Source: Desulfomonilaceae bacterium
GTDB taxonomy: Bacteria > Desulfobacterota > Desulfomonilia > Desulfomonilales > Desulfomonilaceae
DNA: 54,080 bases
Reading direction: 5' to 3'
NCBI GenBank assembly: GCA_041741735.1
Contig: JBGSJS010000059.1
Coordinates: forward strand, 1-54,080
Positions 11,620 through 48,454 of the stretch are shown in pieces. Within the stretch, counting starts at the first letter, position 1. Each line of letters begins with the position of its first letter. The notes beneath the pieces are model-generated. The model was not told the origin of the DNA and did no database searches. It was given only the letters and a program-made list of their open reading frames with translations. The position numbers and the translations under genes are program-made.

Positions 11620-12380
11620 TCCGCAGAGTGATGCGTCCGCAGAGTGATGCGTCCGCAGATGAAGAGGCAAAGCGCCTGGAGTTTCCAGAGGACTTTGCAG
11701 GGTGCGCCGTTGCCTCCGTACGTTTTCTTGTTCTTGAATCTGCGCAATCTGTGGATACTCTTGATCTTCAGACAGACTTCATCCGCAGATGACACAGATG
11801 GAAAGACAAAGGCTTAAGGTCTCCGGAGGCTATTACCGGAAGATGTGTATGAATAGGCCTGGTGTGGACACCTGTGTCGGCTCTTTTGCCTTCCTAATCT
11901 GCGTGTATCTGCGCAATCTGTGGATAGTCTTCTCTGGATTTTCCGAAAAGATCTCATCCGCAGATGACGCAGATGTCCACAGATGAAAAGACATAGGCAA
12001 CAGAAGTTTGCTGAGGACATTGCGGTCCTGTGCACTGTTGATGGCTTGGCGTGGGATAAGGCCGCCTCCGTAAGATCTTCTCTTCTCAAATCTGCGTGAA
12101 TCTGTGCAATCTGTGGATTCTCTTTTTCGGATTCTTGGGAAAGATTTGATCCGCAGATGACGGAGATGTTCACAGATGAAAAGACGAAGACAGTTGAAGT
12201 CTCCGGAGGCTTTTACCGGAAATGCGTATAAGCAGGCTTGGTTTGGACGTCTATGTAGGTCTTGTTGTTTTTGAGTCTGCGTGAATCCGGGCCATCTGTG
12301 GATTCATTTCTTCAGTGAAACAATCTCACCCACGGATGTCCCCGAGGTTCGTGGATGAGAAAACACAAAACGCTTGAACT
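11620..12380. repeat. Tandem array of ~4 units of a ~190-bp repeat, each with a conserved ~100-bp dyad-symmetric core; extends into the 5' region of the GxxExxY ORF.
   Basis: Core consensus: AATCTGCGTGTATCTGCGCAATCTGTGGATAGTCTTCTCTGGATTCTTCGGAAAGATTTCATCCGCAGATGTCACAGATGTCCGCAGATGGAAAGACA. Units begin near 11741, 11897, 12085 and 12270; the last is degenerate. The cores are separated by diverged ~90-bp linkers. Confidence 0.85.
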
Positions 12381-12732
12381 CTAGTCTAGGGCGGCCAAAA
12401 TTCAGCAGGAGTCCTCGCTTGAGATGTGTTGCCTTAAGGTAGTTCAGGAGCTGCGCTTCCTCGATTCCGGTGATCGCATTGAGTGCCTTCAATTCGACTA
12501 TCACCTCATTGTAGCAGACAAAATCGGCACGGTAGGAGCAGTTGAGCTGCTCGCCCTTGTAATAGACCGGCAACTCCACCTCGCGGGCGAATGGAATGGC
12601 TCGGGCCGACATTTCGATCGCAAGCGCGTGCTGATAAACGGCCTCCAGGAATCCTGCACCGAGCTGTCGATGAACCTCCATGGCCGCACCGATAATTGCG
12701 TGAGTCTGTTCGTCTCTTGCATCTGTACTCAT
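12304..12732 (-). CDS. GxxExxY family protein (PD-(D/E)XK-like), embedded in the repeat array.
   Basis: Start at MSTDARDEQTHAIIGAAMEVHRQLGAGFLEAVYQHALAIEM...VYYKGEQL...RADFVCYNEVIVELKAL...AQLLNYLKATHLKRGLLLNFG, a full match to the ~125-aa GxxExxY family. The upstream 76 codons of the track ORF are repeat-derived, so they are excluded. Confidence 0.7.
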   Translation of the reverse strand: MSTDARDEQTHAIIGAAMEVHRQLGAGFLEAVYQHALAIEMSARAIPFAREVELPVYYKGEQLNCSYRADFVCYNEVIVELKALNAITGIEEAQLLNYLKATHLKRGLLLNFGRPRLEFKRFVFSHPRTSGTSVGEIVSLKK

Positions 12733-12879
12733 CCGGGAAAAACCCAAATTCCTTTCTTGACCGGATGACGCCACCTCGGATAGGAGCGTTCTTATCCGTA
12801 GATTACGCAGATGATCGCCGCTGAGTAAAGAAGAAACCTTGGACATGGAGAGGCGAAGATCTCGTGATCGACCAGCGTC

Positions 12880-13300
12880 CTTTTGAGGCTGTGGGTTAGC
12901 TTCCGGATTCAGAGAGGTTTCATCCGCAGATGACACAGATGTCCGCAGATGAAAAGACAATGCGTTTGAAGCCGGGTCGAGAACAACTACAGTTTACGTG
13001 GACTTTCGCAACACACGTGTAACCACGCATTCGTTCCGGCTTCTTTAATCTGCGTGTATCTGCGTCATCTGTGGATACTCTTCTCTGGATTCTTCGGAAA
13101 GATTTCATCCGCAGATGTCACAGATGTCCGCAGATGGAAAGACAAGAGTGACTGAAGTCTCCGAAGGGCTTCTAGCGTCCGGCCAGGTCGTTGATGAATT
13201 TCCATCGCCTGACCGGAGATTCCGCGAGCTATTCTGCTTTTTGAATCCGCGTTGATTTGTACTGGTTCAGCGTGAATCGGACAAATCCGGTTTGGGTTTA
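12880..13300. repeat. Left copy of a ~350-400 bp direct repeat (two hairpin-core units plus a diverged linker) flanking the 13.3-18.8 kb segment.
   Basis: ~95% identical over ~350 bp to 18885-19265, including the stretch ...gaaagacaatgcgtttgaagccgggtcgagaaca(a/g)ctacagt(t/c)tacgtggactttcgcaacacacgtgtaaccacgcattcgttccggcttctttaatctgcgt.... Confidence 0.85.
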
Positions 13301-13540
13301 AGCTACTCCCGGCACCCTGTGTTCCGAGAGATTTGCCACGTGAAGAGACCCTGGGGCTCCGCCCCAGACCCCGGAGTTTTCTGAGGCATCAGGGGTCTAT
13401 CGCCCGATGGGTTTGGGAAGGGACGCGGAAGCAATGTCCTCCACGCCCTGCCATCGGTTCGATGAGCCCCACCGGGTTATTCCTCGACGGGTTGCCCTCC
13501 GGCAGAGCCCGTCTCCGCTTCACCCGGCACGATTATTTCA

Positions 13541-14238
13541 TCACGGGTGGGGCTCATTTGTCAACTCCTCGTGACGACGCTGCTTTCTCGTTTCGCGGGC
13601 TGCTTCGAGCTTTCGGTCACGAGCCGCAAGGATCTCAGGCGCTCGACCTTCCAGCATGGCTTTCGGCGTCACGTAGCCGATGGCGCTGTGCAGACGTACC
13701 CCGTTGTAATGCTCGATGTAACCTGCAACCAGGCGCTTGGCGTCCTCAAGTGAGAGCGGCGTGCCCGGCCGGATGCATTCACGCTTGAGGGTGCCGTGCC
13801 ACCGTTCGATTTTGCCGTTGCTCTGCGGGTAGTAGGGGGAAGTCCGGTCGGACCAGTACCGAACGTAATCTACCACCTCATCGCGTTTGTCCGGCTCCAC
13901 CCAAGACCTGTTCAGCTTTCCCCAAGACTTTTTTTTAGTGCCACGTGAGACTCCATGATCTCCGCGATCACCTCGTCCTTGTGGGCGATCTTGACCTTGA
14001 GTGCTCTGTTTTCCTTCTCCAGACTTCGTTCCTTGCCGTCCTTGCCTCGCTCGAAGGCGGCAGCCCCGTTCTCGAAGAACTCCTTCTGCCACTTGTAAAA
14101 CAACGTCGGGTGAAGACCCTGCTCGTCGCACAGGTCCGAGACCGGAACCTTCTCAACCAGATGCCGCCTGAGAATCCGCACCTTGTCCTCGGCTGAAAAA
14201 CTCCTCCTCTTTCTGGTCACGGCCAATTCCTCCTTCAC
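13541..14238 (-). mobile_element. Decayed IS3-family element: intact OrfA, a -1 slippery site, and an OrfB that keeps only the C-terminal part of the rve/DDE core.
   Basis: OrfA (complement 13912-14220, GTG start with AAGGAGGAA SD) reads MTRKRRSFSAEDKVRILRRHLVEKVPVSDLCDEQGLHPTLFYKWQKEF..., the IS3/IS911 HTH transposase. A8G slippery run lies at 13929-13936 (minus strand AAAAAAAAG). The OrfB frame continues ...SPYYPQSNGKIERWHGTLKRECI... (C-terminal integrase-core motif), but only ~35 aa separate the frameshift from it, so the D,D part of DDE is deleted. Terminal inverted repeats were not confidently located; a 13-bp inverted repeat TGAGCCCCACCGG/CCGGTGGGGCTCA lies at 13449-13552. Confidence 0.65.
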
Positions 14239-20719: not shown

Positions 20720-21559
20720 CTAAGCCACCTTCTCCCTCAGATTACCCAATGCGGCCAGGTGGCCCTTCTCTTCTTCGGCGATCTTAAAGAGCATCTCCTT
20801 GGTTTGGGTGTTGTTCGTCTTTTGCGAAAAGCGGAGGTACAAGTCCAGAGCCTGGGTCTCCAGCATCATTGAGATGTCGAGCAGGCTGCCGACCGAGTGG
20901 AGGTACCTCTCGTTGCGCTGCATGAATTCGTCGCTGCGGAAACCGCCTTCCATCACTTTGGCCGAGACCTGGGCCTCAAACTCCTCGGGAGCGATCTCTC
21001 CGGGCCCGATGGAGCGATACAGCTCCAAGAGATACTGTTTGTGCTTGTCCTCGATGGATGCCAACTTCTCCAGAAGACTCGCGAGCTCCCCTGCCTCGGT
21101 GTCGGCCAGGACGGCCCGATAGAAATCTCCCAAACTCTGTTCCATTCCGTAAGCCAGCTTGATGATTCCCACGGGCGTCTCGTCGGCCCTGACGAGGTCG
21201 AGGTTCAATGCAACAGGTCCTTCGGCTACGCCGCTATCCCAGGCCTTGATTCCCCCGCTCAAATTGTAGACCTTCTTGAATCCTTGGCCGGCAAGCAATT
21301 GAGCCGCAACTCGGCTCCTGCCGCCCACGGCTCAGTAGACGATTACCGGTTTGTCCGGGTCAATTTTGTCGTAGGAATCGGTCAATTGCGGCAGGGGTAT
21401 CAGTTGGGCGCCGGGAATATGCTCCCCTTCATACTCGGAGGGCTGTCGCACGTCGAGGAGGGTGTAGGAGCCTTCCGGGTTGTCTTTCATGAAGGCCCGG
21501 GCTTGGTCCGCGTCGATGGACTCCACCGGAGTAAAGAGCTTTTTCAGCGAATCGAACAT
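20720..21559 (-). CDS. Selenoprotein: rhodanese (sulfurtransferase) domain with Sec (UGA at 21332-21334) at the catalytic Cys position, fused to a C-terminal rubrerythrin/ferritin-like domain.
   Basis: The track splits this into 21332-21559 and 20720-21328, which are in the same frame and separated only by TGA. Read-through gives ...LLDVRQPSEYEGEHIPGAQLIPL...DKPVIVY-U-AVGGRSRVAAQLLAGQGFKKVYNLSGGIKAW, the rhodanese active-site loop C-X2-G-X-R, with U in place of C. A hairpin GAGCCG-AGUUG-CGGCUC (21301-21317) starts 15 nt after the UGA (SECIS-like). The C-terminal half has ferritin-like E..H motifs (EEEKGHLAAL). Confidence 0.75.
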
Positions 21560-21621
21560 GTCTCTTCTCCTTGTGAATGGGATTTAGAACGTTGCAGGGA
21601 CTGCTCCCCAAGATGCGCCCG

Positions 21622-23139
21622 TCATTTTGCGGCCCATTTCTTCACCGGACCCGCGGCCACGAGATACAGGAGCCGGCTCGCGTCGTTGAGCCCGAGGAGG
21701 CGTGCCGCCTCATCGTCGTAGAATGCGCCGATCCCGCAACATCCCAGACGCATGGCCGTGGCCGCCACGTAAAGCCTTTGGCCCAGGCGTCCAGCGGCCA
21801 GCATGGCATGACGGTATCCGCGTGGACCCCGGTTGGACTCCAGGAGCTCCATATTGGTCAAGAAAAGAAAATGCACGGCGCAGTTGGCCAGCCAAGCCTG
21901 ATCCAAACAAATGTGCATCATGTCGCCGATGACGGACTTGTGAAACACGGTCGAGACCGTCTTCCTTTCCCTGTTCAGGAGATAGAAGCCGGGCTCCAAA
22001 CCCTCGACCTTCCCTGCAAGAAACCCTACCGCAACGGCGTCGTTTCCGGGAAATAGCGCTGCCGACCCCGAGCCGCCGTCCGAGGAGAGCACGGTGAGCA
22101 GCGCGGACAGGCAGTCGGCGGACAGGGCGTCCTGCACGAAATTCCTCATGGAACGCCTCTTGAAAACGGCTTCAGCGTACCCAAGAGACTCGGGCCATGG
22201 TTCCGGGGAAAATATCTTTCGTTCGTCGTGAGACACAACACCGAGGCTTGCAGCCATGGACGCCCCAGTCCTGCTATGCTCCACCACCCTGGACGTTGCG
22301 GCATGAACCTCCAATATGGGAGGGTACTCAATCTCTCTTGGGGAGACTCGGCTCGCTTCCGCCAGCCCCTCAACAGGATCTCCCAGGCTCGCGTCGCCCA
22401 CGTCCGACTCGTCGGCGGGTGTCCAAACGGCCACAGCGGCAAGACAAACCTCACGGGAAGGGTCCACCCCCATGAGGGAATTAACGGCTTGGTCGTCGAA
22501 ATCGTAGAAGAAACGATGGGCCAACCGCTCCGATCTCAGAGCCGGCCCAAGGTTTTCCGCCAAATGTCCCGTGTCCAGCAGATGGTAACGGTATGCCCGA
22601 TCCCGGTACTTCCATGAGCTTCGAAAGAAAATCGACGTGAGGAGAAAGATCAGGGCAGGGGGAGAGGAAGGGGCCGGGGAGAGCATCGGAGCAAGTGCTC
22701 CCATAACATTACCCTCTCGAATGAGGGTAATGGATTGGTCGGCAACGTCTTGATGGTAGAGACCGGGGGCGATTCCCTGCACGTCGAGGATCGATGCGTA
22801 CAGCTCGAACGGGTACAGGGCACCCGCCGACGCTACACTCCGATAGTAGAAATCCGCACCACCGTGTCGTGCTTTGGCGGTCAACGCATGGGCGAGCAAC
22901 ACAATGCGACCGAGCCGGTCCGCGTCAAGCGATCCCTGGGCATCAACTGAAGCCTCGCCCGTGAAGAGATCCGACAGTCGTTTCTCCTGCAGCGCCGGTT
23001 CTCGGGAAAGTGGAACGTTCCTGATGCCGGGGCATTTCTTGAAGACGTTCGGCTGATTCGACCAGTCCATAAAATGCCCGCCCATATCCTGCCGACGGTA
23101 GCTGGTCAGGTCGTGATAATCCCGAGCGGACTCCATCAT
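21622..23139 (-). CDS. SagB-type dehydrogenase / tandem nitroreductase-like domain protein.
   Basis: 505 aa. Two nitroreductase-fold halves (...RRSMRNF...ALSADCLSALLTV...; ...AGALYPFELY...) typical of the SagB/ThcOx family. AGGAG SD before ATGATG. Confidence 0.7.
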   Translation of the reverse strand: MMESARDYHDLTSYRRQDMGGHFMDWSNQPNVFKKCPGIRNVPLSREPALQEKRLSDLFTGEASVDAQGSLDADRLGRIVLLAHALTAKARHGGADFYYRSVASAGALYPFELYASILDVQGIAPGLYHQDVADQSITLIREGNVMGALAPMLSPAPSSPPALIFLLTSIFFRSSWKYRDRAYRYHLLDTGHLAENLGPALRSERLAHRFFYDFDDQAVNSLMGVDPSREVCLAAVAVWTPADESDVGDASLGDPVEGLAEASRVSPREIEYPPILEVHAATSRVVEHSRTGASMAASLGVVSHDERKIFSPEPWPESLGYAEAVFKRRSMRNFVQDALSADCLSALLTVLSSDGGSGSAALFPGNDAVAVGFLAGKVEGLEPGFYLLNRERKTVSTVFHKSVIGDMMHICLDQAWLANCAVHFLFLTNMELLESNRGPRGYRHAMLAAGRLGQRLYVAATAMRLGCCGIGAFYDDEAARLLGLNDASRLLYLVAAGPVKKWAAK

Positions 23140-23181: not shown

Positions 23182-23691
23182 TCATCCTCCCCAAGGCATA
23201 TTCGCGTACACTTCCGACAATCGGTCGCGATAGTCCCGGAAGAACTGTTCGTGCTGCTTTTCCCAGTCAGCCAGCATCTTGAGGGCCTGTGAGGCCTTGC
23301 CTTCGGTCTGTTCCGACATCTTTCCGTAAAATTCGCTCAAATCCTTCTCAATGAGCCATGCGGTATTGAAGACGGTCACGTCCGGCACCATCGAGCCTTC
23401 GACGCACTTCTCAAGAAACTCGGATTTGGCTCGTTGGTCGAAGTAGTCCGTCGGCGGGAGGGCGACTTCCCGGGCTCTCGCCAGATCGATCTCTGCATCT
23501 TGCTTGAGGTCGGCGAGAATCAAGGAGATGAACTCGATATGTTTCTCCTCCTCCTGTATCAGGCGTCGCAACGCGGTTACCGCCGCGCCGATCCCCATGC
23601 TTTCAAGAGAAGTCCGGAAGAAGTTCATACCGGTCTTCTCCTGATTCAGGGCGTACTCGAAAATCTTAATCAGCCTTTTGTTATCACCCAT
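23182..23691 (-). CDS. Rubrerythrin-like ferritin-like domain protein (no rubredoxin domain).
   Basis: 169 aa with E..H diiron-type motifs (LIQEEEKHIEFISLIL; LIEKDLSEFYGKM...ADWEKQHEQFF). Paralogous to the C-terminal domain of the Sec-rhodanese fusion. Confidence 0.65.
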   Translation of the reverse strand: MGDNKRLIKIFEYALNQEKTGMNFFRTSLESMGIGAAVTALRRLIQEEEKHIEFISLILADLKQDAEIDLARAREVALPPTDYFDQRAKSEFLEKCVEGSMVPDVTVFNTAWLIEKDLSEFYGKMSEQTEGKASQALKMLADWEKQHEQFFRDYRDRLSEVYANMPWGG

Positions 23692-40431: not shown

Positions 40432-40794
40432 TTTCCCTCCAGTCCGCCACCGTTATCGACACAGCTCCGTCATCCTTGCCATCAACTTAGTCAACTGCGG
40501 TGCCGCACTCTTCGTGACCGATACCCGGACAAGCCCCTGACCCGACTTCTCGCTGTCGGTTGAAGCGGTTCATCGCCTGTTCCCGGCTGTTTTCCATGTC
40601 GAGAGCATACGCGGTAGTCTGTCCGTCTTGCCCCCGCTCACGGAGGATGGCTCTTGCTGCAGACGAGAATAAGGCCGGCACGAAAAAAAGACAAGGAGTG
40701 TCTTCCGTTCTTGTGCTCCTCGACGTTTTTTCGGTTATTGTCGACCTGAACGGAGCCCATCGCGGACCTGTTGTGCAATGAATCGTAACGAGTT

Positions 40795-41817
40795 ATGATG
40801 ACTCAGGATGACCGGCTCCAAGCATCGGGAGGCCTCGAATTGGTACACCGAATCTCTCGTGCTCTCCCCGGCACCTTACCTTGCCCAGAGAAGGCCACCG
40901 TTATGCCGGAACCGGCAAAGAGAACCATCAAAGTCAAACCCATACTCGCCGATCTTCGCGCCGGATTGGACCCGCCGGCTCTGAAGAGCAAGTACGGCCT
41001 CTCAGATCGTGAGCTCAAAGCTGTTTTGAACAAGCTTGAGAGCATGGGCGCTCTGCCCCCCGGCGTCCTGTCCCGCAAGCCGGCTCCGGGTCGCCGGGAA
41101 TCCGGGGTCTCCTCCGGACGGTCGTCCGAGCCTTCCACCACAAGACGAGGGGAGGGGCTGGATTCTCCCGGCCCTGCGATTCAGACGCCGGTGCGATGTC
41201 CCATATGCCATGCCGACAAGAAAACCCTCTCCGCGCCCTGTCCTCAATGCGGTGCTCTCCGGGGCGGATCGCTCCTTCGAGATGCTCCCGGCATTCCCGT
41301 GCCGGAGGGGGACAGGCGCCATGTCGCACGGGTTTCCAGACCGCCGCAACAACGTTCGTCAAATCCGTGGGTGACCATCGGCATCACCACGGTGATATTT
41401 TTCGCTATCGGCTTGGGATTGTTGGCAGTCTCGTCCCATCGGTCCACCGTGACATCCAGTCTGCCCTCTTCCCTCTCAACGGCCGGGTCTGAAGGCATCA
41501 TGAAGATTACCGCGTCGAATTTTCAAACGGACGTGGTGGAAGCTTCCAGAACCAAACCGATACTCATTGAATTCTACGCGGATTGGTGAGGGCCGTGCAG
41601 ACGGATGGAGTCCGTCCTCGCAGATGTGTCCGCAGAGCTCGGTTCCGACGCAGTGATCGGGAAGATTCACGAGAAGGAGCGGGCGCTTTTCGCAAAGTTC
41701 GGGGTGAGAGGGATTCCGGCTCTCTTCATTCTCCGCGACGCTGAAGTGAGGCAGCGCTTTGTGGGCACACAGCCGAAGAGAGTGCTGATCGATGCCTTGA
41801 AGAAGCACGGCTCGTGA
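40795..41817 (+). CDS. Selenoprotein: membrane-anchored thioredoxin with a W-U-G-P-C active site (UGA at 41587-41589) and an N-terminal cytoplasmic zinc-ribbon region.
   Basis: Track ORFs 40795-41589 and 41605-41817 share one frame and are separated by TGA. Read-through gives ...KPILIEFYADW-U-GPCRRMESVLADV...VRGIPALFILRD..., the thioredoxin fold with Sec replacing the first Cys of WCGPC. A hairpin GACGGA-UGGAG-UCCGUC (41600-41616) starts 11 nt after the UGA. Upstream in the protein are a C-x2-C...C-x2-C zinc ribbon (CPICHADKKTLSAPCPQCG) and a TM helix (WVTIGITTVIFFAIGLGLLAV). The true start may be the internal MPEPAKR (40900). Confidence 0.75.
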
Positions 41818-41835: not shown

Positions 41836-42822
41836 TCAATCCTGCAAATCTTTCCACGCGGGGATGAAACCCAATCCGTCGGCCCTTTGAACGGCATTGA
41901 TCGCGGCTTTTCGCACCACATCGGATGCAAGAAGCCCGATGCGGTTGGGGTCCGCGTCTTCACCGCCCACACTGAGGGCAATGGTAAGGTCTCCGTCCAC
42001 CTGGGTATGGTAGGGTGCGATGACTCTGCCTATTCCGAGGGTGGCCTGTGCGGCTATCCTGGCTGCGGCGACCTTGTCCGCGCCGGCGTTGAATGCAACG
42101 ACAGCGAGGGTGGTATTCTGCACGGAGATCCTGCGGGAACGGGCTTTGCCTTCTCGCAAGAGTCTCGCGGCGTCGGCAAGCTCCATCGAATTCGGGCTCA
42201 CGCGGGCTCCTGCCAATAGACGGCCTTCTTCGTCGGTGACGTCGCCGTAAGCGTTGACCACAACGAGGGCTCCCACGATGAGATCGCCCGATCTAACCGA
42301 TGCCGAGCCCAGCCCCCCCTTCATTCCTTGTTGAATGCCGAAGACTTTTCCCACGCCGGCCCCGGTTCCCGCACCGACGCTGCCTTGCTCGATGGGGCCC
42401 GACGAGGCGTTGACACAGGCCTGACGTCCCATGGCAGCGTCCGGGCGGCGAGAGCCGTCGCCAAGGTTGAGATCGAATATCGCTGCAGTGGGCACAATGG
42501 GAACCGTCTGACCGACAACCTCAAAACCGATTCCCTGCTCCGCCAGATACGCAAGCACTCCTCCCGCAGCATCCAGGCCGAACGCACTGCCGCCGCACAG
42601 ACAGAGCGCGTGCACTCTATTCACCGGATGCGCCGGGCTCAGGGAATCCATTTGTCTGGTGGAAGGGGCGCTCCCCCCCTTGTGTAGACCGGCTTCCGCG
42701 CCTTCAGGCGGCACAAGGATCACCGTCACGCCGGTTGCCGCAATGCGATCGGTTGCGTGGCCGACCCTGATTCCCCGGACGTCGGTGATATCTCCATGCA
42801 AAGTGGTTGTGCTCGGGGTCAT
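41836..42822 (-). CDS. DmpA/ArgJ-fold (P1/S58 family) aminopeptidase.
   Basis: 328 aa. ..GIRVGHATD...GVTVIL......GGSAFGLDAAGGV...IVPTAAIFDL matches the DmpA L-aminopeptidase/D-esterase family. Confidence 0.8.
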   Translation of the reverse strand: MTPSTTTLHGDITDVRGIRVGHATDRIAATGVTVILVPPEGAEAGLHKGGSAPSTRQMDSLSPAHPVNRVHALCLCGGSAFGLDAAGGVLAYLAEQGIGFEVVGQTVPIVPTAAIFDLNLGDGSRRPDAAMGRQACVNASSGPIEQGSVGAGTGAGVGKVFGIQQGMKGGLGSASVRSGDLIVGALVVVNAYGDVTDEEGRLLAGARVSPNSMELADAARLLREGKARSRRISVQNTTLAVVAFNAGADKVAAARIAAQATLGIGRVIAPYHTQVDGDLTIALSVGGEDADPNRIGLLASDVVRKAAINAVQRADGLGFIPAWKDLQD

Positions 42823-42856
42823 ATTCGTTCCTGCCGTGCCGATTGATAACAGGCGC

Positions 42857-43450
42857 CTATCGAGTGAGGTCGCATTTCATCAGGAAACAGCCCCCTTCGT
42901 GGGGGATAAGCTCGTGTGACCCGATCTCTACGCGTTGTACTACCTCGAACCCGCATCGTTCGTACAGCGGCAAGGCTGTCGCGTTATCGGCAAAGGCCAC
43001 GAGACAGAGGCTCCCGAATCCGTTTTGCACGGCCCTGGCCTTGGTTCGGGCAATGAGCTCGCCTCCTACACCTTGCTTTCTCACACCGGCGTCCACGGCC
43101 AAGGAATCGAGAAACCAGCTCTCGTCAACCCGCAGCTCGAAAAAATCATTGAGAAAATCGAGTCTTTCCTGAGGGAAGAACTTGCGGTTCTCTTCGGTCA
43201 ATCCGTAATAGCGGCCGGCGTAGGAGAGCGACATCCCCACAATCTTCCCGTCTCTCTCCGCGACGATGGCACTCTTGTACGAACGGTGGGAGTCACCGTC
43301 TTCCATAACATGAGCCATCACTTCCACCGGGGTGAATCCGGGGATCAGGTCGTGAAAGAGGTATTCAACGACACCTCCCGAGGCGATGCTGATGAGCTCG
43401 GCCAGACGCACGGCGTCTTTTTTCTTTCCGTCTCGATAAGTTATCTGCAT
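42857..43450 (-). CDS. GNAT family N-acetyltransferase.
   Basis: Start MQITYRDGKKKD; acetyl-CoA binding motif (RKQGVGGELI..). The track ORF has a 16-codon Cys-rich upstream extension. Confidence 0.7.
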   Translation of the reverse strand: MQITYRDGKKKDAVRLAELISIASGGVVEYLFHDLIPGFTPVEVMAHVMEDGDSHRSYKSAIVAERDGKIVGMSLSYAGRYYGLTEENRKFFPQERLDFLNDFFELRVDESWFLDSLAVDAGVRKQGVGGELIARTKARAVQNGFGSLCLVAFADNATALPLYERCGFEVVQRVEIGSHELIPHEGGCFLMKCDLTR

Positions 43451-43494
43451 GTGGAGAGACCTCCTACAAGCTTTGCAGATTTCACAGCAGCGTT

Positions 43495-44694
43495 TCAATT
43501 AGGCCCGACGGTCATCTCGCCCTCCGTCTTGACGCGGAGCAACGGGGCAAGGGCCAAACCGGCCAGCAGCATCCCGCTGCAAGCGTAGTAGAGAGTCGGA
43601 TAGCCCCAATGAGCCAACACGGGTGCACCCACGACGGGACCTACGAACCAACCGGCCTGAAACATCTCCATGGCCAAGTTGGTGTTTAGAGGGCGGAACC
43701 TGGGTTCGGAGACATCGAAGAGCAGGGCGCTCAGCATGGGCATGACCACGCCCCATCCAAGGCCCAGAACGATTCCCATGCCGTAGAATGATACCGGTCC
43801 GGAGAGATGGGCCATTGCCGCGCATCCCAAACAGAGCCAGGCAATGGACCCCAAGAGAAGCTTGGGTTTGTCCAGTCGATCGAAGAGATGTCCGGCGAAG
43901 ACCCGGACCCCGATCTCCGTCATTGTGGAAAGGGTAAAGAACCAGCCGGCATTGGCAACGCCGATGCGATCGCCGAAGCCCTTGAGGAAATAGAAGACCG
44001 GGGTGAAGGAAGCCCACACCAACAGCGATAGAACGAGGATGGCCACCACCCGGGGATTTCTCAAATTTTTGCCGAGCTCTTTGAGGTTGATTCCCGATTC
44101 GGGGCTTTTTGCCGAGTCTTTCGGTTGAGACCCCACGAGCCCCAAAAGAGGGAAGGTCAAAACCATGGCAATCGCACAGAGCTCCAGCACGCCGTCGAAA
44201 CTCCCCAGGCGGCGGGTAAGTGGGTCCAGGAGGGGTGGAAGAACCGCGTACGGCAACAGGGTAATGACGGAAAAGAGGCCGAAAGCCTGGCCGCTCATGC
44301 CCGGCGGAATGCAACCGACCATCCGGCTGACAATGGCGGTCACCATGACGACGTAGCCTGCGCCGTGCGCCACGCGCAGCAGGGCCATGGTCCGGAAGTC
44401 TCTGGTCTCATTGTAGAGCAGCAGGCATGCAATCACGGGAACACACCCGACGGCTATCCACCGCCTTGCATTGTCCGGATGAAGAAACGGGCTGATAAAG
44501 GGCCTGATTGCCAATACAGACAAGGAGAAAAGGGCGATGAGCAGGCCGAACCATTCCTTGTCGATAGGCAATGTGCCGAGGTACTCGTGGAATTTGAAGA
44601 AGACCGCAATATTGCAGAACGCTAGAAAAACGATCCCGTTGAGGGCGAGAAACTCACGCGTGAAGAGGGCTCTAAGATCGGCCATACATGGCAC
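43495..44694 (-). CDS. MFS transporter.
   Basis: 399 aa, ~12 predicted TM helices, MFS-like loop motifs. Confidence 0.8.
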   Translation of the reverse strand: MPCMADLRALFTREFLALNGIVFLAFCNIAVFFKFHEYLGTLPIDKEWFGLLIALFSLSVLAIRPFISPFLHPDNARRWIAVGCVPVIACLLLYNETRDFRTMALLRVAHGAGYVVMVTAIVSRMVGCIPPGMSGQAFGLFSVITLLPYAVLPPLLDPLTRRLGSFDGVLELCAIAMVLTFPLLGLVGSQPKDSAKSPESGINLKELGKNLRNPRVVAILVLSLLVWASFTPVFYFLKGFGDRIGVANAGWFFTLSTMTEIGVRVFAGHLFDRLDKPKLLLGSIAWLCLGCAAMAHLSGPVSFYGMGIVLGLGWGVVMPMLSALLFDVSEPRFRPLNTNLAMEMFQAGWFVGPVVGAPVLAHWGYPTLYYACSGMLLAGLALAPLLRVKTEGEMTVGPN

Positions 44695-44754
44695 CGTCCG
44701 GTATTCCGAGGGTAGGAGAGGCCGGACCGTCCCGTCTCGTCCCGATTGGGGAGG

Positions 44755-45615
44755 TCACGCCTCGGTCACGGGCACGTTCGCATAATCGTTGAGGCGAAGC
44801 AAGAGAGCCCCGGCGAGCGTCTTGCGATACTCTGCTCCCGCTCGAACGTCGCTGATGGGGGAAACCGTCTTTTCCACGAGAGCTGCCGCTCGCCGCAGGG
44901 TATCGGGGCACAGCTTTTCACCACAAAGCGCTTCCTCGACCTCCGCTGAGGTGACCACCGTAGGTCCCACGCTCCCCCACGCGAGCCTGACCGCTTGGAT
45001 CACACCCGAGTCGGATACTTCCATAAGTGCAGCCATGCTCGCTACCGAGCAGGCCTGGGCTTTACGCCTCCCGACTTTCTCATAGTGCTGAACATTCCAC
45101 CGCGCATTCTTGCCCAGCCGGACCCCTGTTACAACTTCACCCTTTTCCAGAGCCGCCATCCCGGGGCCTTGGATGAAATCGCCGATCGGAGCTCGTCTCT
45201 CCCCATCGGCCGATCGGATCTCCACCTCCGCCTTCAACGCGTAAAGCGGCGGCAAGGTGTCGCCCGCCGGGGAAGCGGTCACGATGTTGCCCCCTATGGT
45301 TCCCATGTGTCGGATGGGTGGGGAGCCCAAAACTGCCAGGGCTTGAGCCAGAACGGGGAACTCCCGTTGAATGAGAGTAGTCTCCAGCAGGCGGCTATGA
45401 GTGGTAGCAGCGGCTATGAAAACCTCTTCACCTTCGTCCCTCACGCCGATGAGCTCCTCGACGCGCTCCAGACAGATCAAGCATTCCGGCGCTTCCAACC
45501 CCGACCGCATCTTGACCAGGAAATCGGTGCCGCCCGCATAGAGCGCCGCATCGGGCTCATTGCCGAGGACCGTCCAAAGCTCCTCAAAATTTCTTGGCAG
45601 ATGAACCGATCTCAT
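44755..45615 (-). CDS. FAD-binding (medium) subunit of a xanthine dehydrogenase/CO dehydrogenase-family molybdoenzyme.
   Basis: Start MRSVHLPRNFEELWTVLGNEPDAALYAGGTDFLVKMRSG (CoxM/XdhB FAD-binding PCMH fold). The ATG overlaps the upstream stop as ATGA. The 263-codon N-terminal extension in the track ORF is antisense or overlap noise. Confidence 0.85.
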   Translation of the reverse strand: MRSVHLPRNFEELWTVLGNEPDAALYAGGTDFLVKMRSGLEAPECLICLERVEELIGVRDEGEEVFIAAATTHSRLLETTLIQREFPVLAQALAVLGSPPIRHMGTIGGNIVTASPAGDTLPPLYALKAEVEIRSADGERRAPIGDFIQGPGMAALEKGEVVTGVRLGKNARWNVQHYEKVGRRKAQACSVASMAALMEVSDSGVIQAVRLAWGSVGPTVVTSAEVEEALCGEKLCPDTLRRAAALVEKTVSPISDVRAGAEYRKTLAGALLLRLNDYANVPVTEA

Positions 45616-46088
45616 GATTCCTCGCCTGCTTTGCAGTACGGAATGGCCTTTTCCACGGCATCGACGATCTTCTGGTATCCGGTGCACCTGCAGAGATTCC
45701 CTGCCAGGCCCTGCCTGATTTCTTCCCTGGTCGGCTCGGGGTTGCGATTCAACAGATCCACCGAGGCCATGACCATGCCCGGAATGCAAAAGCCGCACTG
45801 TACTGCGCCGTGCTCGATGAATGATTCCTGGACCGCGTGGAGGCTTCGGCCGCCGTCCAGCCCCTCCACGGTGGTGATTTCGCATCCGTCCAGCTGCACC
45901 GCAAGCATGAGACACGACAGTCGGCTCTCCCCGTTGACGAGAATCGTGCAGGCTCCGCAATCGCCGGCTCCACAAGATTCCTTTGTTCCGGTCAATCCCA
46001 TGTCTTCCCGCAGCAGATCCACTACCCGACGGTCCGGCCTCACATCGATATTGGTGTCGGTTCCATTGAGCTTGAACGAGATCCTCAC
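45612..46088 (-). CDS. [2Fe-2S] (small) subunit of the XDH/CODH-family molybdoenzyme.
   Basis: GTG start; C-x4-C-x2-C...C plant-type cluster (CGAGDCGACTILV) and a second C-x2-C...C-x-C cluster (GAVQCGFCIPGM...CRCTGY). Confidence 0.9.
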   Translation of the reverse strand: MRISFKLNGTDTNIDVRPDRRVVDLLREDMGLTGTKESCGAGDCGACTILVNGESRLSCLMLAVQLDGCEITTVEGLDGGRSLHAVQESFIEHGAVQCGFCIPGMVMASVDLLNRNPEPTREEIRQGLAGNLCRCTGYQKIVDAVEKAIPYCKAGEES

Positions 46089-48454
46089 TCTCTACCTCCA
46101 TCCCTTTCTTTGCTTTCCAGCGCGGCCTTGACCCGCTCCGGAGTGAGAGGGAATTCCGAGCAGCGGATACCGCAAGCATCCCGGACGGCATTGGCCACAG
46201 CAGGGAGAGGGCCGTTGGTAGCGATCTCTCCCACCCCTTTGAGTCCGAAGGGGCCTGTGGGCTCGTGGATCTCCACGGCAAGGGTCTCCATTTCGGGAAC
46301 ATCCGGTGCCGTGGGAACGAGGTAGGTGGTAAAATCCGGGGTGAGCACTTGCCCGTTGAGCACGTCGAACGATTCGGAAAGGGCGAATCCCAGGCCCTGG
46401 GCAATCCCCCCCTGAATCTGCTGCTCGTACACCTGCGGGTTGATCACCTTGCCGCAATCGCTGATCGCCACATAGCGTTTCACATCGACAATACCGGTTA
46501 TCTCGTCCACCTCCAGGGCAGCCGCATGCGCTCCGTACGAAAAGAGCGTGTGAGGCAATCCGTGAAGGCTCAGGTTCTCTTCAACCCCGAGGCCGTCCCG
46601 CGCAACCGGTGCCCTGAAGTGATGAACGGCAACCCGTTCGTCGTCGTTGAGGAATGCCGCCAGTCTCGACAGCGGCACCTCTCGACCCGACGGGAGGTGT
46701 TTCACCGCTCCGGGCACAAGGACCATGTCGTTCGTGTCACGGATCATGAGCAGATCGGCCGCGCGCTGAAGAATCCGATCCTTGAGAATTTCCGCGGCGC
46801 CGATCAAGGCGTTGCCGAAGGTGTACGTGCAGCGGCTCGCCGATGCGGACCCGCTCGGAAGTGTCCGGTCCGTATCCGGTTGAATCAAGTCTATGGCGTC
46901 GGCGTTCTGGTTGAGCAGCGCCCCTACTATCTGCAGATTGGTGCTCGCGTTTCCCTGACCCATATCCACTACACCGCAGTAGACGACTATTCGTCCCTCT
47001 CTCGTCAATTCGAGCTTTGCATTGGCGTAATCGGGCACCACCGGACCGTACCCGGAAGCGTGCATCAGCGCCGCGATCCCTACGCCGCGACGCTTGGAAG
47101 AGCCTGCACCGGCCTTCCAGGCTTCACGGTCTTTCCAGAGTTTGTGCTTCGACAGTGTTTCGAGACAATCAGTCAGGCCGGTGGAGGAGACCAGGGTCTT
47201 ACCCACGCAGTTCCTGTCGCCGATCTTCAGAGCGTTTTTCAGGCGGAGCTCCACCGGGTCCATTCCCAGGCGCGCGGCGAGGATGTCCATCATCTGCTCG
47301 ACGGCAGCGGTCACCTGCGTCACTCCAAAGCCCCGAAAAGCACCGCCGATGGGATTGTTGGTGTACACGCACCATCCCCTGAGCGCGGCATGGGGGATGC
47401 GGTAAGGACCGCCGGCGTGCTCCAGGGCAAGAGCGAGAACAACTCCTCCGAGATGATCGTACGGCCCTGTATCAAGATAAAACTCCACATCCAGAAAATG
47501 GAGTGTCCCGTCATTTTTGGCGCCAAGCCGGTAGCGCATCTTCGCCGCATGGCGTTTCGTCCCGGCCAGGAACGATTCTTCACGGTCCCACCACATCTTG
47601 ACCGGTCGGCCCCCTGAATTGAGGGCAGCGAGTGCGAGAAGGCTCTGCACCGTTACTCCATCCTTGCCTCCGAAAGCGCCGCCGACATAGGGCGCCACGA
47701 CCCTTACCCGGGACGAATCCAGACCCAGAGCCTCGCAAACCTCCGCACGGTCACGGAAAGGCGTTTGGGTCGAGCAGGTAATGACGATCTTGCCGTCCGC
47801 TTCCGTGCAGGCCCACCCGGATTCGGTCTCCAGGTACGCGTGCTCCTGCCTCGGCGTCTCGAAGCACCCCTCAACAATCAGATCGCATTCCAGCTCGGCA
47901 TCCGACGGCGATCCTATGCTCAGATCTCCTTTGAGGAGGATATTCCCTTCCGGGCTGTCTTCGTGAACGAGAGGGGCACCTTCCGCCAGGGCTGCTTGCG
48001 GATCGAACACGCCGGGCAGCGGCTCGCAATTGACACGGATCAAGCGGATCGCCCTCCGGAGGACCTCTCTGCTCTCGGCCAGGACGAGGGCCACCGGGTC
48101 CCCGCAATGCCTTACCTTGTCGTCCACGAGGACTGGCTGGTCTTTTCTCACGACCCCTTGACGGTTGGTCCCCAAAACATCTTTGTGCGTGAGGACGCGA
48201 AGAACCCCCGGCATCTCCGCGGCTCGGGCGGCGTCAATACCAACCAGTCGACCGTGAGGCAGACCGGCCCTTTTCACCCCGGCCCAAACCATGTCACTGG
48301 AGTAGAAATCTGCCGCGTACAACTCTCTGCCCGTCACCTTGTCCAGTGCGTCGGCCCGCGGAAGCGTGACTCCAATTTGTGGTGTGCCATGGCGCTCGCC
48401 TGCACGAGAAATGCCCGATGATCTCGGGAGCACGTTTGACGTTACCTTGGACAA
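46085..48454 (-). CDS. Molybdopterin-binding (large) subunit of the XDH/aldehyde oxidoreductase/CODH family.
   Basis: 789 aa. ..RADALDKVTGRELYAADF.. N-terminus typical of the family; its stop overlaps the FeS subunit start. The start codon is TTG in the track and the true start is uncertain. Confidence 0.85.
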   Translation of the reverse strand: MSKVTSNVLPRSSGISRAGERHGTPQIGVTLPRADALDKVTGRELYAADFYSSDMVWAGVKRAGLPHGRLVGIDAARAAEMPGVLRVLTHKDVLGTNRQGVVRKDQPVLVDDKVRHCGDPVALVLAESREVLRRAIRLIRVNCEPLPGVFDPQAALAEGAPLVHEDSPEGNILLKGDLSIGSPSDAELECDLIVEGCFETPRQEHAYLETESGWACTEADGKIVITCSTQTPFRDRAEVCEALGLDSSRVRVVAPYVGGAFGGKDGVTVQSLLALAALNSGGRPVKMWWDREESFLAGTKRHAAKMRYRLGAKNDGTLHFLDVEFYLDTGPYDHLGGVVLALALEHAGGPYRIPHAALRGWCVYTNNPIGGAFRGFGVTQVTAAVEQMMDILAARLGMDPVELRLKNALKIGDRNCVGKTLVSSTGLTDCLETLSKHKLWKDREAWKAGAGSSKRRGVGIAALMHASGYGPVVPDYANAKLELTREGRIVVYCGVVDMGQGNASTNLQIVGALLNQNADAIDLIQPDTDRTLPSGSASASRCTYTFGNALIGAAEILKDRILQRAADLLMIRDTNDMVLVPGAVKHLPSGREVPLSRLAAFLNDDERVAVHHFRAPVARDGLGVEENLSLHGLPHTLFSYGAHAAALEVDEITGIVDVKRYVAISDCGKVINPQVYEQQIQGGIAQGLGFALSESFDVLNGQVLTPDFTTYLVPTAPDVPEMETLAVEIHEPTGPFGLKGVGEIATNGPLPAVANAVRDACGIRCSEFPLTPERVKAALESKERDGGRE

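What the first reader, a model, noticed from the sequence alone, without database searches (positions are those of the whole stretch)
40795..41817. Selenocysteine thioredoxin (W-U-G-P-C) with a membrane anchor and an N-terminal zinc-ribbon extension
An in-frame TGA (41587-41589) sits at the first Cys of the thioredoxin CGPC motif (FYADW-U-GPCRR). The downstream ORF completes the Trx fold. The hairpin GACGGA UGGAG UCCGUC (41600-41616) lies 11 nt after the UGA. The upstream ~230 aa contain a 4-Cys zinc ribbon and a TM helix, so this is not a plain TrxA. A second selenoprotein in the same window strengthens the inference that this organism uses Sec.
Basis: partly seen in the sequence, partly recalled or inferred. 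Interest (0 to 1): 0.6.

Follow-up and report, generated by a model that had tools for sequence, protein, structure and literature searches.

The report
Membrane-anchored selenocysteine thioredoxin gene
This is a real gene for a membrane-anchored thioredoxin whose catalytic cysteine is replaced by selenocysteine; gene finders cut it in two at the UGA codon, and it belongs to a family of at least 74 similarly truncated database proteins that has no dedicated model in NCBIfam.

Summary
TGA 41587-41589 sits in frame at the first position of a thioredoxin CxxC motif (FYADW-U-GPC). Read through, the ORF gives a complete Pfam Thioredoxin domain.

The same TGA occurs in all 11 related loci retrieved by protein similarity (about 25-83% identity). 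Each continues in frame as x-x-C-R-R-M-x-S-V plus the rest of the fold. Downstream dN/dS is 0.11-0.17.

A 6-7 bp hairpin (41600-41616, loop U-GG-A-G) meets the four structural criteria of the published bacterial SECIS model. Its stem is nearly invariant, even at synonymous sites. The one Cys-containing relative (TGT) has lost the hairpin.

TGA is the normal stop of 19 of 24 domain-supported genes here, including this one, so the recoding is local.

The true start is ATG 40903, not 40795, giving 304 aa. The protein has an HTH-like three-helix module, a 4-Cys zinc ribbon, one TM helix, a Ser-rich linker and a Sec-Trx domain.

I found 74 database proteins with this architecture, all cut at the Sec codon. 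Sec-thioredoxins are known; this architecture has no dedicated NCBIfam model. Its membrane topology and substrate are inferred only.

The parts
40771..40799 (+). Promoter-like element: -35 TTGTGC (40771-40776), 17-nt spacer, -10 TATGAT (40794-40799).
   Evidence: Read from the sequence. The TATGAT block and the GTTG of the -35 are invariant in six orthologous loci. The consensus scanner did not call it, because the window's -35 matches only 3 of 6 positions. Its function is inferred.
40800..40902 (+). Non-coding 5' leader with conserved blocks (GGATGACCGGC ... CCGGCACC) and a possible long hairpin. An SD-like GAAGG lies at 40890-40894.
   Evidence: The alignment of six orthologues shows 2-nt and 3-nt indels, so the stretch is not coding. 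RNAalifold predicts 21 pairs, 4 with compensatory changes, at a weak energy of -15.5 kcal/mol. There is no Rfam match.
40903..41817 (+). Complete coding sequence: 304 codons including Sec229, followed by the TGA stop at 41815-41817.
   Evidence: Orthologues start at the equivalent ATG. Purifying selection acts on both sides of the TGA.
40918..41052 (+). N-terminal HTH-like three-helix module (about aa 6-50, KRTIKVKPILADLRAGL..LKSKYGLSDRELKAVLNKL).
   Evidence: AF2 predicts helices 11-19, 24-31 and 35-47 at pLDDT above 90. The profile finds this module in hundreds of other proteins, often in tandem. There are only weak hits to DUF433 and HTH families, and Foldseek matches have E of 0.58 or worse.
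41188..41256 (+). Four-Cys zinc ribbon (C99-P-x-C102 ... C113-P-x-C116-G).
   Evidence: The four Cys are invariant in 37 aligned family members. AF2 pLDDT is 75-86 with two short strands. Zinc binding is inferred.
41368..41430 (+). Single transmembrane helix (WVTIGITTVIFFAIGLGLLAV).
   Evidence: This is the only strongly hydrophobic 19-mer (Kyte-Doolittle mean 2.3; the next best is 0.7). AF2 predicts a helix at 155-180 with pLDDT of about 90.
41431..41499 (+). Ser/Thr-rich flexible linker. It varies in length across the family and reaches about 110 aa in the FQFYSxT subgroup.
   Evidence: Alignment. AF2 pLDDT is below 50 for residues 183-196.
41500..41802 (+). Thioredoxin domain, classical Trx type, with active site W-U-G-P-C and a cis-Pro motif (GIPALF).
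   Evidence: Pfam PF00085, E 3.2e-20. TIGR01068 scores 70.8 bits, below its equivalog cut-off of 96.8. PDB thioredoxins match down to E 1e-21.
41587..41589 (+). UGA decoded as selenocysteine (Sec229), the attacking residue of the UxxC motif.
   Evidence: TGA is at this codon in all 11 loci retrieved by protein similarity and in 35 loci retrieved by the DNA pattern. It aligns with the first Cys of WCGPC. The Cys-form relative carries TGT here.
41596..41598 (+). TGC, the resolving Cys232 of UxxC.
   Evidence: Cys is invariant in the 11 loci retrieved by protein similarity, with synonymous TGC/TGT variation. This shows protein-level selection between the TGA and the downstream ATG. In the 35 pattern-retrieved loci this codon was fixed by the search pattern.
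41600..41616 (+). SECIS hairpin: a 6-bp stem GACGGA/UCCGUC, a U-G closing pair, and the apical loop GGA. A 3-bp lower stem (41596-98 with 41620-22) exists only in close orthologues.
   Evidence: 98.7% of cells pair in 11 sequences. The only changes are one-sided and pair-preserving (A-U to G-U, U-G to U-A). MFE ranges from -8.7 to -10.9 kcal/mol. Synonymous sites are frozen: dS 0-0.16 against 0.6 to saturated in the flanks, Fisher p = 3.5e-4. The hairpin fits the bSECIS model in PMC13188914.

Best explanation
The gene at 40903-41817 encodes a 304-aa single-pass membrane selenoprotein.

Shown or strongly supported: the ribosome meets UGA at codon 229, and the hairpin that begins 11 nt downstream acts as a bacterial SECIS. 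By established SelB biology, this hairpin recruits SelB carrying Sec-tRNA(Sec). Selenocysteine is inserted and translation runs another 75 codons to the genuine TGA stop. The product has an HTH-like three-helix module, a four-Cys zinc ribbon, one TM helix, a flexible linker and a classical thioredoxin fold with the active site W-U-G-P-C.

Inferred: the N-terminal cassette stays in the cytoplasm and the Sec-thioredoxin domain faces the periplasm. There Sec229 attacks substrate disulfides and Cys232 resolves the mixed selenenylsulfide. The domain would then act as a tethered reductant in the way TlpA, ResA and CcmG do. It would be recharged by an unidentified CcdA/DsbD-type transporter.

Unknown: the role of the cytoplasmic cassette, which may be partner docking or signalling.
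For: - **Trx domain:** the domain spans the TGA.
- **Conserved TGA:** it is present in 11 loci retrieved by protein similarity at about 25-83% identity. All continue in frame as x-x-C-R-R-M-x-S-V plus a full Trx C-half. A further 35 metagenomic loci show the same.
- **Translated downstream frame:** dN/dS is 0.11-0.17 where dS is estimable (3 of 6 pairs). dN stays low (0.15-0.21) where dS is saturated.
- **SECIS hairpin:** it meets all four structural criteria of the published bSECIS model (3-9 nt loop, 4-16 bp stem, loop pattern N1-G-G-N-N2, 16-17 nt spacing, MFE at or below -7.5).
- **Suppressed synonymous change:** codons +3 to +12 barely vary.
- **Cys-form relative:** L055 has TGT and no hairpin (-2.3 versus -10.9 kcal/mol). 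It restores the canonical K-M-M-E-P in place of R-R-M-E-S.
- **No code reassignment:** TGA terminates 19 of 24 domain-supported genes, including this one.
- **Second Sec gene:** a rhodanese gene with a UGA and a strong hairpin lies in the same window.
- **Family size:** 74 predicted proteins share the cassette and end exactly before the U.
- **Domain structure:** AF2 supports the helical module, the zinc ribbon and the TM helix.
- **Cytoplasmic N-terminus:** there is no signal peptide and the N-terminal domain is long and folded. The same module occurs in a PAS/PilZ protein. This clade has a 3:1 K/R bias on the N-side of the TM helix.
Against: - **Sec machinery not seen:** no tRNA-Sec, selA, selB or selD is visible in the window or in the fetched flanks. 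Sec-decoding capacity is therefore inferred, not shown.
- **No covariation:** the hairpin stem shows no compensatory double changes. It is simply invariant, so shuffle controls are uninformative. Because the CRRMxSV peptide is also conserved, protein and RNA constraints are partly confounded.
- **Topology uncertain:** across the wider family, K/R counts flanking the TM helix slightly favour the C-terminal side (18 sequences against 9, with 10 ties).
- **No reductant found:** no CcdA/DsbD gene or any conserved neighbour was found.
- **Type of Trx domain:** it is of the cytoplasmic TrxA type, not the TlpA/ResA type.
- the tool would not accept the read-through protein for structure prediction.
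Confidence: 0.8

Rival explanations
1. Same selenoprotein, opposite topology. The Trx domain is cytoplasmic and tethered to the inner face of the membrane, where thioredoxin reductase reduces it. The N-terminal cassette is outside.
For: In the wider family the C-terminal flank of the TM helix carries more K/R (mean 2.6 against 2.0; 18 sequences against 9) and a conserved W-S-x-H-R motif. The domain is of the TrxA type. No DsbD/CcdA gene lies nearby.
Against: A folded N-terminal domain of 130-155 aa with a zinc ribbon and no signal peptide is unlikely to be translocated (established topogenesis rules). The same module occurs in a protein with PAS and PilZ domains. The window's own clade has the K/R bias on the N-side.
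Confidence: 0.2
2. The protein is mainly a transmembrane redox sensor, not a bulk reductant. The redox state of the outward-facing Sec-Trx domain is relayed through the single TM helix to the cytoplasmic HTH-like and zinc-ribbon cassette, in the manner of ToxR/CadC-type one-component receptors or membrane anti-sigma factors.
For: The N-terminal cassette is as conserved as the Trx domain. The three-helix module resembles HTH domains, though only weakly. The cassette recurs with other output and sensor domains. The gene stands alone, with no conserved enzymatic partners.
Against: No significant match to any DNA-binding family was found (Foldseek E of 0.58 or worse; no Pfam hit on this protein). 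The module also occurs in long tandem arrays with ankyrin, TPR and pentapeptide repeats, which looks more like a protein-interaction module. No regulated target is identifiable.
Confidence: 0.2
3. The TGA is a true stop. The locus is a split gene or pseudogene, producing a 228-aa membrane protein and perhaps a separate 70-aa fragment that starts at ATG 41605.
For: Gene callers annotate it this way everywhere. An ATG and an ORF follow 15 nt after the TGA. The Sec machinery was not seen.
Against: The split falls exactly at the catalytic Cys in the 74 database proteins and all 46 loci examined. The codons between the TGA and the ATG are in frame and hold an invariant Cys with synonymous variation. 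The SECIS-type hairpin is conserved. The downstream frame is under strong purifying selection. The Cys-form relative reads straight through and lacks the hairpin. Neither fragment alone would carry a complete Trx fold.
Confidence: 0.03
4. UGA is read as a standard amino acid (Trp, Gly or Cys), through genetic-code reassignment or a suppressor tRNA, and not as Sec.
For: None specific. It is only that the Sec machinery is not visible in the window.
Against: TGA ends 19 of 24 domain-supported genes, including this gene itself. The position is the redox-active Cys of CxxC, the classic site of Sec/Cys exchange (PMC13188914). The hairpin matches the SelB-type SECIS model.
Confidence: 0.02

Closest known systems
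Sec-containing thioredoxin (Trx, PF00085, UxxC). It is listed among the characterised prokaryotic selenoproteins in PMC13188914, with representative WP_010956703.1.
   Same: Both have a classical thioredoxin fold with Sec at the first (attacking) position of CxxC and a SECIS hairpin inside the coding sequence just after the UGA. Cys homologues are widespread.
   Different: From my own knowledge, not checked here, the known examples are small soluble proteins of about 105 aa. This one carries a 195-aa N-terminal extension (HTH-like module, zinc ribbon, TM helix, linker). Within this architecture Sec is almost universal: one Cys form against 74 truncated Sec forms. The x-x dipeptide varies across the family (GP, PP, MP, PA, GW and others).
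[quoted passage not shown]
   Same: These share an N-terminal membrane anchor followed by an outward-facing Trx-fold domain with a CxxC-type motif. This is the working model for how the present protein acts.
   Different: The Trx domain here is of the TrxA type. NCBIfam scores for DsbE, ResA and TlpA (32.5, 18.2 and 14.3 bits) fall far below their cut-offs (123 to 230). Those proteins have only a short cytoplasmic stub, not a folded cassette of about 150 aa. The topology here is inferred, not shown.
Single-pass transmembrane regulators with a cytoplasmic N-terminal nucleic-acid- or zinc-binding domain and a periplasmic redox-sensitive domain (ToxR/CadC-type receptors, zinc-binding membrane anti-sigma factors).
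   Same: The overall layout matches: a folded cytoplasmic N-terminal domain with an HTH-like fold and a Cys4 zinc site, one TM helix, and an extracytoplasmic thiol-active domain.
   Different: No sequence or significant structural match to OmpR-type winged helices or ZAS domains was found. The resemblance is architectural only and comes from my own knowledge of those families.

Membership tests
Bacterial selenoprotein gene (SelB/SECIS-dependent UGA recoding) | An in-frame UGA aligns with a redox-active Cys in homologues. | tested here: met
   The UGA aligns with the first Cys of WCGPC in Pfam and PDB thioredoxins. The same-architecture relative L055 has TGT at this codon.
Bacterial selenoprotein gene (SelB/SECIS-dependent UGA recoding) | A bSECIS as defined in PMC13188914: 3-9 nt apical loop, 4-16 bp upper stem, G in the first two loop positions (N1-G-[G|U]-N-N2), 16-37 nt from the UGA to the loop, and MFE at or below -7.5 kcal/mol. 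| tested here: met
   The loop is U-G-G-A-G, the stem is 6-7 bp, the spacing is 16-17 nt, and MFE is -8.7 to -10.9 kcal/mol in six sequences.
Bacterial selenoprotein gene (SelB/SECIS-dependent UGA recoding) | The UGA and the downstream reading frame are conserved across orthologues under purifying selection. | tested here: met
   11 protein-retrieved and 35 pattern-retrieved loci all carry the TGA. Downstream dN/dS is 0.11-0.17 where dS is estimable.
Bacterial selenoprotein gene (SelB/SECIS-dependent UGA recoding) | The genome encodes selA, selB, selC (tRNA-Sec) and selD. | not testable with these tools
   None is in the 54-kb window or the fetched flanks, and the rest of the genome is not available. 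Indirect support comes from a second UGA/hairpin rhodanese gene in the window.
Bacterial selenoprotein gene (SelB/SECIS-dependent UGA recoding) | Selenium is demonstrated in the protein (75Se labelling or mass spectrometry). | not testable with these tools
   This requires an experiment.
Thioredoxin family (Pfam PF00085) | The score exceeds the Pfam gathering threshold over the whole domain. | tested here: met
   72.5 bits against a cut-off of 23.5, covering profile positions 3-102 of 103.
Thioredoxin family (Pfam PF00085) | W-C-G-P-C-type active site and a conserved cis-Pro loop. | tested here: met
   W-U-G-P-C aligns with WCGPC, and GIPALF aligns with SIPTLL of 6ckp.
TrxA equivalog (NCBIfam TIGR01068 / NF006898) | The score exceeds the curated equivalog cut-off. 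| tested here: not met
   70.8 bits against 96.8, and 56.5 against 138. The protein is in the thioredoxin family but is not the housekeeping TrxA.
TlpA/ResA/DsbE periplasmic thiol-disulfide oxidoreductases | The score exceeds the curated cut-off of the family models. | tested here: not met
   TIGR00385 scores 32.5 against 123; NF002854 scores 18.2 against 170; NF047696 scores 14.3 against 230. The protein may work like these but is not a member.
TlpA/ResA/DsbE periplasmic thiol-disulfide oxidoreductases | N-in/C-out signal-anchor topology with the Trx fold outside. | tested here: inconclusive
   There is a single TM helix. The K/R bias favours N-in in this clade but is ambiguous family-wide. 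No topology predictor or experiment was available.

The most novel reading that the evidence does not exclude
This family would be a new class of single-pass transmembrane redox-signalling selenoproteins. An extracytoplasmic, near-obligately Sec-containing thioredoxin domain would report the redox state outside the cell to a cytoplasmic HTH-like and zinc-ribbon cassette. That cassette is itself an undescribed, widely reused module in Thermodesulfobacteriota-type anaerobes.
Probability: 0.15. Interest if true: 0.7.

Novelty: new variant of a known kind. Interest (0 to 1): 0.45.

Why it matters
- **Annotation.** Every database copy I saw (74 predicted proteins) is cut at the Sec codon and left as an unnamed or 'hypothetical' protein (one Thioredoxin Pfam hit among those with precomputed domains) plus a 66-78 aa fragment that at best carries a Thioredoxin hit. 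Neither Pfam nor NCBIfam has a model for the architecture. The family offers a ready-made rule for correcting these calls: UGA, six nucleotides, TGY-MGR-CGG-ATG-GNN-TCC-GTC.

- **Biology.** If the Trx domain is outside the membrane, this is a Sec-translocon-inserted extracytoplasmic selenoprotein of the classical thioredoxin type. It would be tethered to a conserved cytoplasmic cassette, a layout that could link envelope redox chemistry to the cytoplasm.

- **Evolution.** Sec is nearly fixed within this architecture, with one Cys form seen. The SECIS is frozen at the nucleotide level across proteins only about 25-35% identical in their N-terminal parts. It has reshaped the helix after the active site: R-R-M-x-S replaces the canonical K-x-x-x-P, which the one Cys form has. 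This is a clear example of an RNA element dictating protein sequence.

Tried and rejected
- **Whole-region fold.** Folding 64 nt after the UGA gave no significant z-score (0.34). Only the local hairpin and the comparative data are informative.
- **Rfam.** No hit at the gathering threshold or at E up to 1.
- **tRNA-Sec.** ARAGORN found none in the window or in nine loci.
- **Related loci, broad alignment.** The search for related loci with the 35-sequence alignment failed because it was too diverse.
- **Related loci, narrower alignment.** On genome contigs it returned only generic thioredoxins from unrelated taxa. That used the single scan, so the organism could not be named this way.
- **Full-length structure.** Only the 228-aa N-part was modelled.
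- **Foldseek.** The N-part model against PDB gave nothing significant (best E 0.58).
- **Window protein look-up.** The look-up of encoding contigs for P0001 was not on record.
- **Cluster names.** The listing of cluster members gave no names for the window proteins.
- **Neighbour clustering.** Across 47 loci it found no conserved partner gene, only overlapping antisense ORFs and the local synteny of close orthologues.
- **Window annotation.** Pfam on 30 window ORFs, plus the precomputed domains of the syntenic loci for the region downstream of the gene, found no sel genes and no DsbD/CcdA.
- **Covariation test.** It is uninformative because the stem never varies on both sides.
- **Rejected readings.** I rejected sequencing error, pseudogene and code reassignment; the reasons are in the rival explanations.
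Full report
**1. The observation**

The window has an ORF from 40795 to 41589 that ends ...PILIEFYADW-TGA. The same frame continues GPCRRMESVLADV... to a TGA at 41815-41817. With Sec written as Cys, Pfam Thioredoxin (PF00085) matches profile positions 3-102 of 103 straight across the TGA (E 3.2e-20, 72.5 bits against a cut-off of 23.5). The best sequence matches among solved structures are ordinary thioredoxins (6ckp, E 1e-21). In that alignment W-U-G-P-C falls on WCGPC and GIPALF falls on the cis-Pro loop.

**2. Is the UGA read through? Comparative evidence**

A word-indexed search with the upstream ORF found five orthologues at 58-82% identity. All were called as ending ...EFYADW. Their DNA (loci L001-L006) has TGA at the same codon, followed in frame by GPCRRMESVLAD... 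and about 75 further codons.

A full HMMER profile search of 1.84 billion cluster representatives gave 718 hits. Of the best 150, 33 share the whole architecture. Every one of those stops immediately before the first CxxC position, ending in FYADW, FQFYSDT, FYADR, FHADS, FYSPN and similar.

I fetched DNA for five of these distant members (L013-L016, L018; about 25-35% identical to the window protein). Each again shows TGA followed by x-x-C-R-R-M-x-S-V and a complete Trx C-half. A second profile search of the 5.8-billion-protein set added 34 more, all truncated at the same place. In total I saw 74 such proteins, and all have the CxxC...CxxC zinc ribbon.

Among close orthologues, dN/dS downstream of the TGA (codons +13 to +75) is 0.11-0.17 in the three pairs where dS is estimable (0.7 to 2.5). 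In the other three pairs dS is saturated and dN stays low. The downstream frame is therefore translated. The Cys at +3 lies between the TGA and the ATG that gene callers use for the '70-aa ORF'. It is invariant and shows TGC/TGT variation, which argues against two separate polypeptides.

**3. The SECIS**

In the 11 loci retrieved by protein similarity, the 7-pair helix is paired in 98.7% of cells. Five pairs never vary. Two vary on one side only and stay paired (A-U to G-U, U-G to U-A). There are no compensatory double changes, so covariation as such is absent. The evidence lies instead in conservation at synonymous sites.

- Codons +3 to +12 have dS of 0-0.16, while both flanks have dS from 0.6 to saturated.
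- Among codons with an invariant amino acid, 8 of 9 are invariant inside this stretch against 14 of 58 outside it (Fisher p = 3.5e-4).
- Local MFE is -8.7 to -10.9 kcal/mol in six diverse sequences.

The published bSECIS model (PMC13188914, Fig. 2 legend) requires four things, and all are met:

- a 3-9 nt loop;
- a 4-16 bp upper stem;
- a loop pattern N1-G-[G|U]-N-N2;
- 16-37 nt between the UGA and the loop, with MFE at or below -7.5 kcal/mol.

Here the loop is U-G-G-A-G, the stem is 6-7 bp and the spacing is 16-17 nt.

The pattern TGA-N6-TGY-MGR-CGG-ATG-GNN-TCC-GTC occurs once in the window, against 0.02 expected. It occurs in 36 metagenome contigs. Of these, 35 are family members, and almost all with enough upstream sequence carry the N-terminal cassette. 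The remaining one, L024, is a chance hit.

The single Cys-form relative (P0020 / L055) has TGT at the Sec position. Its sequence reads K-M-M-E-P where the Sec forms read R-R-M-E-S, and it has no hairpin (-2.3 kcal/mol). This is the textbook Sec/Cys pair. It also suggests that the SECIS, not the fold, dictates the R-R-M-x-S peptide.

**4. Not a reassigned code**

TGA is the stop of 19 of 24 Pfam-supported genes in the window, including this gene's own stop. A second gene on the minus strand (20720-21583) is a rhodanese-rubrerythrin fusion. It is interrupted by TGA 21332-21334 at the rhodanese active-site Cys (VIVY-U-AVGGRS). A strong hairpin follows (z = -3.05, apical loop AGUUG). No tRNA-Sec and no selA, selB or selD is in the window or the fetched flanks. 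The organism's Sec machinery is therefore inferred.

**5. Gene boundaries**

Orthologues start at MPEPAKR..., which corresponds to ATG 40903. It is preceded by a conserved SD-like (A/G)GGC, written GAAGG at 40890-94 in the window.

The ATG at 40795 lies in an invariant TATGAT. That hexamer sits 17 nt downstream of a TTGnnn hexamer and so looks like a promoter. The intervening 100 nt carry 2-nt and 3-nt indels in L003 and are therefore non-coding. This leader has conserved blocks and a weakly supported hairpin. It has no Rfam match.

The protein is thus 304 aa, encoded by 40903-41817.

**6. Architecture**

AF2 on the 228-aa N-part with a 37-sequence alignment gave the following:

- a three-helix bundle at residues 11-47 (pLDDT above 90);
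- a small beta zinc ribbon around C99, C102, C113 and C116 (pLDDT 75-86);
- disordered linkers;
- a TM helix at 155-180 (pLDDT about 90).

The four Cys are invariant in the family.

The three-helix module alone accounts for most of the 718 profile hits. It occurs singly or in tandem, up to seven copies, in proteins with ankyrin, TPR, pentapeptide, PAS and PilZ domains. It shows only weak similarity to DUF433 and other HTH families. Foldseek returns only HTH domains, and none is significant (E of 0.58 or worse). NCBIfam has no dedicated model. The TrxA equivalog and the TlpA/ResA/DsbE models all score below their cut-offs.

**7. Topology and function (inference)**

Only one hydrophobic segment exists. 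Three observations favour N-in/C-out:

- There is no signal peptide.
- The N-terminal domain is long and folded, and its module co-occurs with PAS and PilZ domains elsewhere.
- This clade has a 3:1 K/R excess on the N-side of the TM helix.

That orientation would put the Sec-Trx domain outside the membrane.

Against this, the wider family has slightly more K/R on the C-side (18 sequences against 9, with 10 ties). The Trx domain is of the TrxA type. No CcdA/DsbD gene or any conserved neighbour was found. I put N-in/C-out at about 70%.

The chemistry follows from established thioredoxin mechanism: Sec229 attacks and Cys232 resolves. Sec in the attacking position is known to raise catalytic efficiency in Sec-Trx and Sec-Grx (PMC13188914). 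The substrate, the reductant and the role of the cassette are all unknown.

**8. Comparison with what is known, and novelty**

Sec-containing thioredoxin (PF00085, UxxC) is an established prokaryotic selenoprotein family (PMC13188914; PMC1088965). The Sec recoding itself is therefore not new.

Neither the family table of the 2026 review, nor NCBIfam, nor my full-text searches list or mention this architecture: a cytoplasmic HTH-like module and zinc ribbon, a TM helix, a linker and a Sec-Trx domain. Three further features also stand out:

- Sec is near-universal within the architecture.
- The SECIS is frozen at the nucleotide level.
- The x-x dipeptide is variable.

The only taxon labels I obtained are 'Desulfomonilaceae bacterium' MAGs (lineage Thermodesulfobacteriota).

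I rate the finding as a new variant of a known kind, of moderate interest.

Noticed in passing
window 20720-21583 (minus strand); TGA at 21332-21334: A second candidate selenoprotein. A rhodanese domain is interrupted by TGA at the active-site Cys (PVIVY-U-AVGGRS) and fused to a C-terminal rubrerythrin/ferritin-like domain. A strong hairpin follows the UGA (-30 kcal/mol over 60 nt, z = -3.05, apical loop AGUUG). Its neighbours are a nitroreductase-domain protein (21622-23139) and a rubrerythrin (23182-23691), which may form a redox-stress cluster.
   Followed up: partly
window 40771-40902: The conserved upstream region of the Sec-Trx gene holds a promoter-like TTGTGC-N17-TATGAT and a leader of about 100 nt. 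The leader has invariant blocks (GGATGACCGGC ... CCGGCACC) and a possible long hairpin with a few compensatory changes in six orthologues. It has no Rfam match and could be a regulatory leader.
   Followed up: partly
window 40918-41052; proteins P0010, P0014, P0022, P0025, P0031, P0066, P0090, P0135: The three-helix module of about 50 aa (K-R-x-I-S-A-K-x-I-L-x-D-I-R-S-G-M...K-Y-G-L-S-D...K-L) is a widespread building block that no Pfam model captures cleanly. It is often repeated up to seven times and combined with a zinc ribbon, ankyrin, TPR, pentapeptide, PAS or PilZ domains. It gives only weak hits to DUF433, FeoC and SelB-wing_2.
   Followed up: partly
L031, L033, L052 (and protein P0030): In these family members the N-terminal cassette and the Trx part lie in different frames or are separated by a stop. 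This could be assembly error, decay or a real frameshift variant. I did not resolve it.
   Followed up: no
L055 3001-3921 (protein P0020): This is the only Cys-form member with the same architecture (TGT in place of TGA, CPAC motif, no hairpin). It also has a 1-nt frame break about 15 codons after the motif, and the Trx C-half continues in the +1 frame. It may be a sequencing error or a decaying gene.
   Followed up: partly
window 12304-14131 (minus strand): A PD-(D/E)XK nuclease-family ORF (12304-12960) and an integrase-core fragment (rve_3; 13541-14131) suggest a mobile-element remnant. GC content dips to 0.51-0.53 in 12-20 kb.
   Followed up: no
window 41836-48454 (minus strand) and L001-L003: Close orthologues share conserved synteny downstream of the Sec-Trx gene: Peptidase_S58, GNAT acetyltransferase, MFS transporter, and a three-subunit xanthine-dehydrogenase-type molybdoenzyme (FAD_binding_5, Fer2, MoCoBD). 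Distant family members do not share it, so it is probably not functionally linked.
   Followed up: partly
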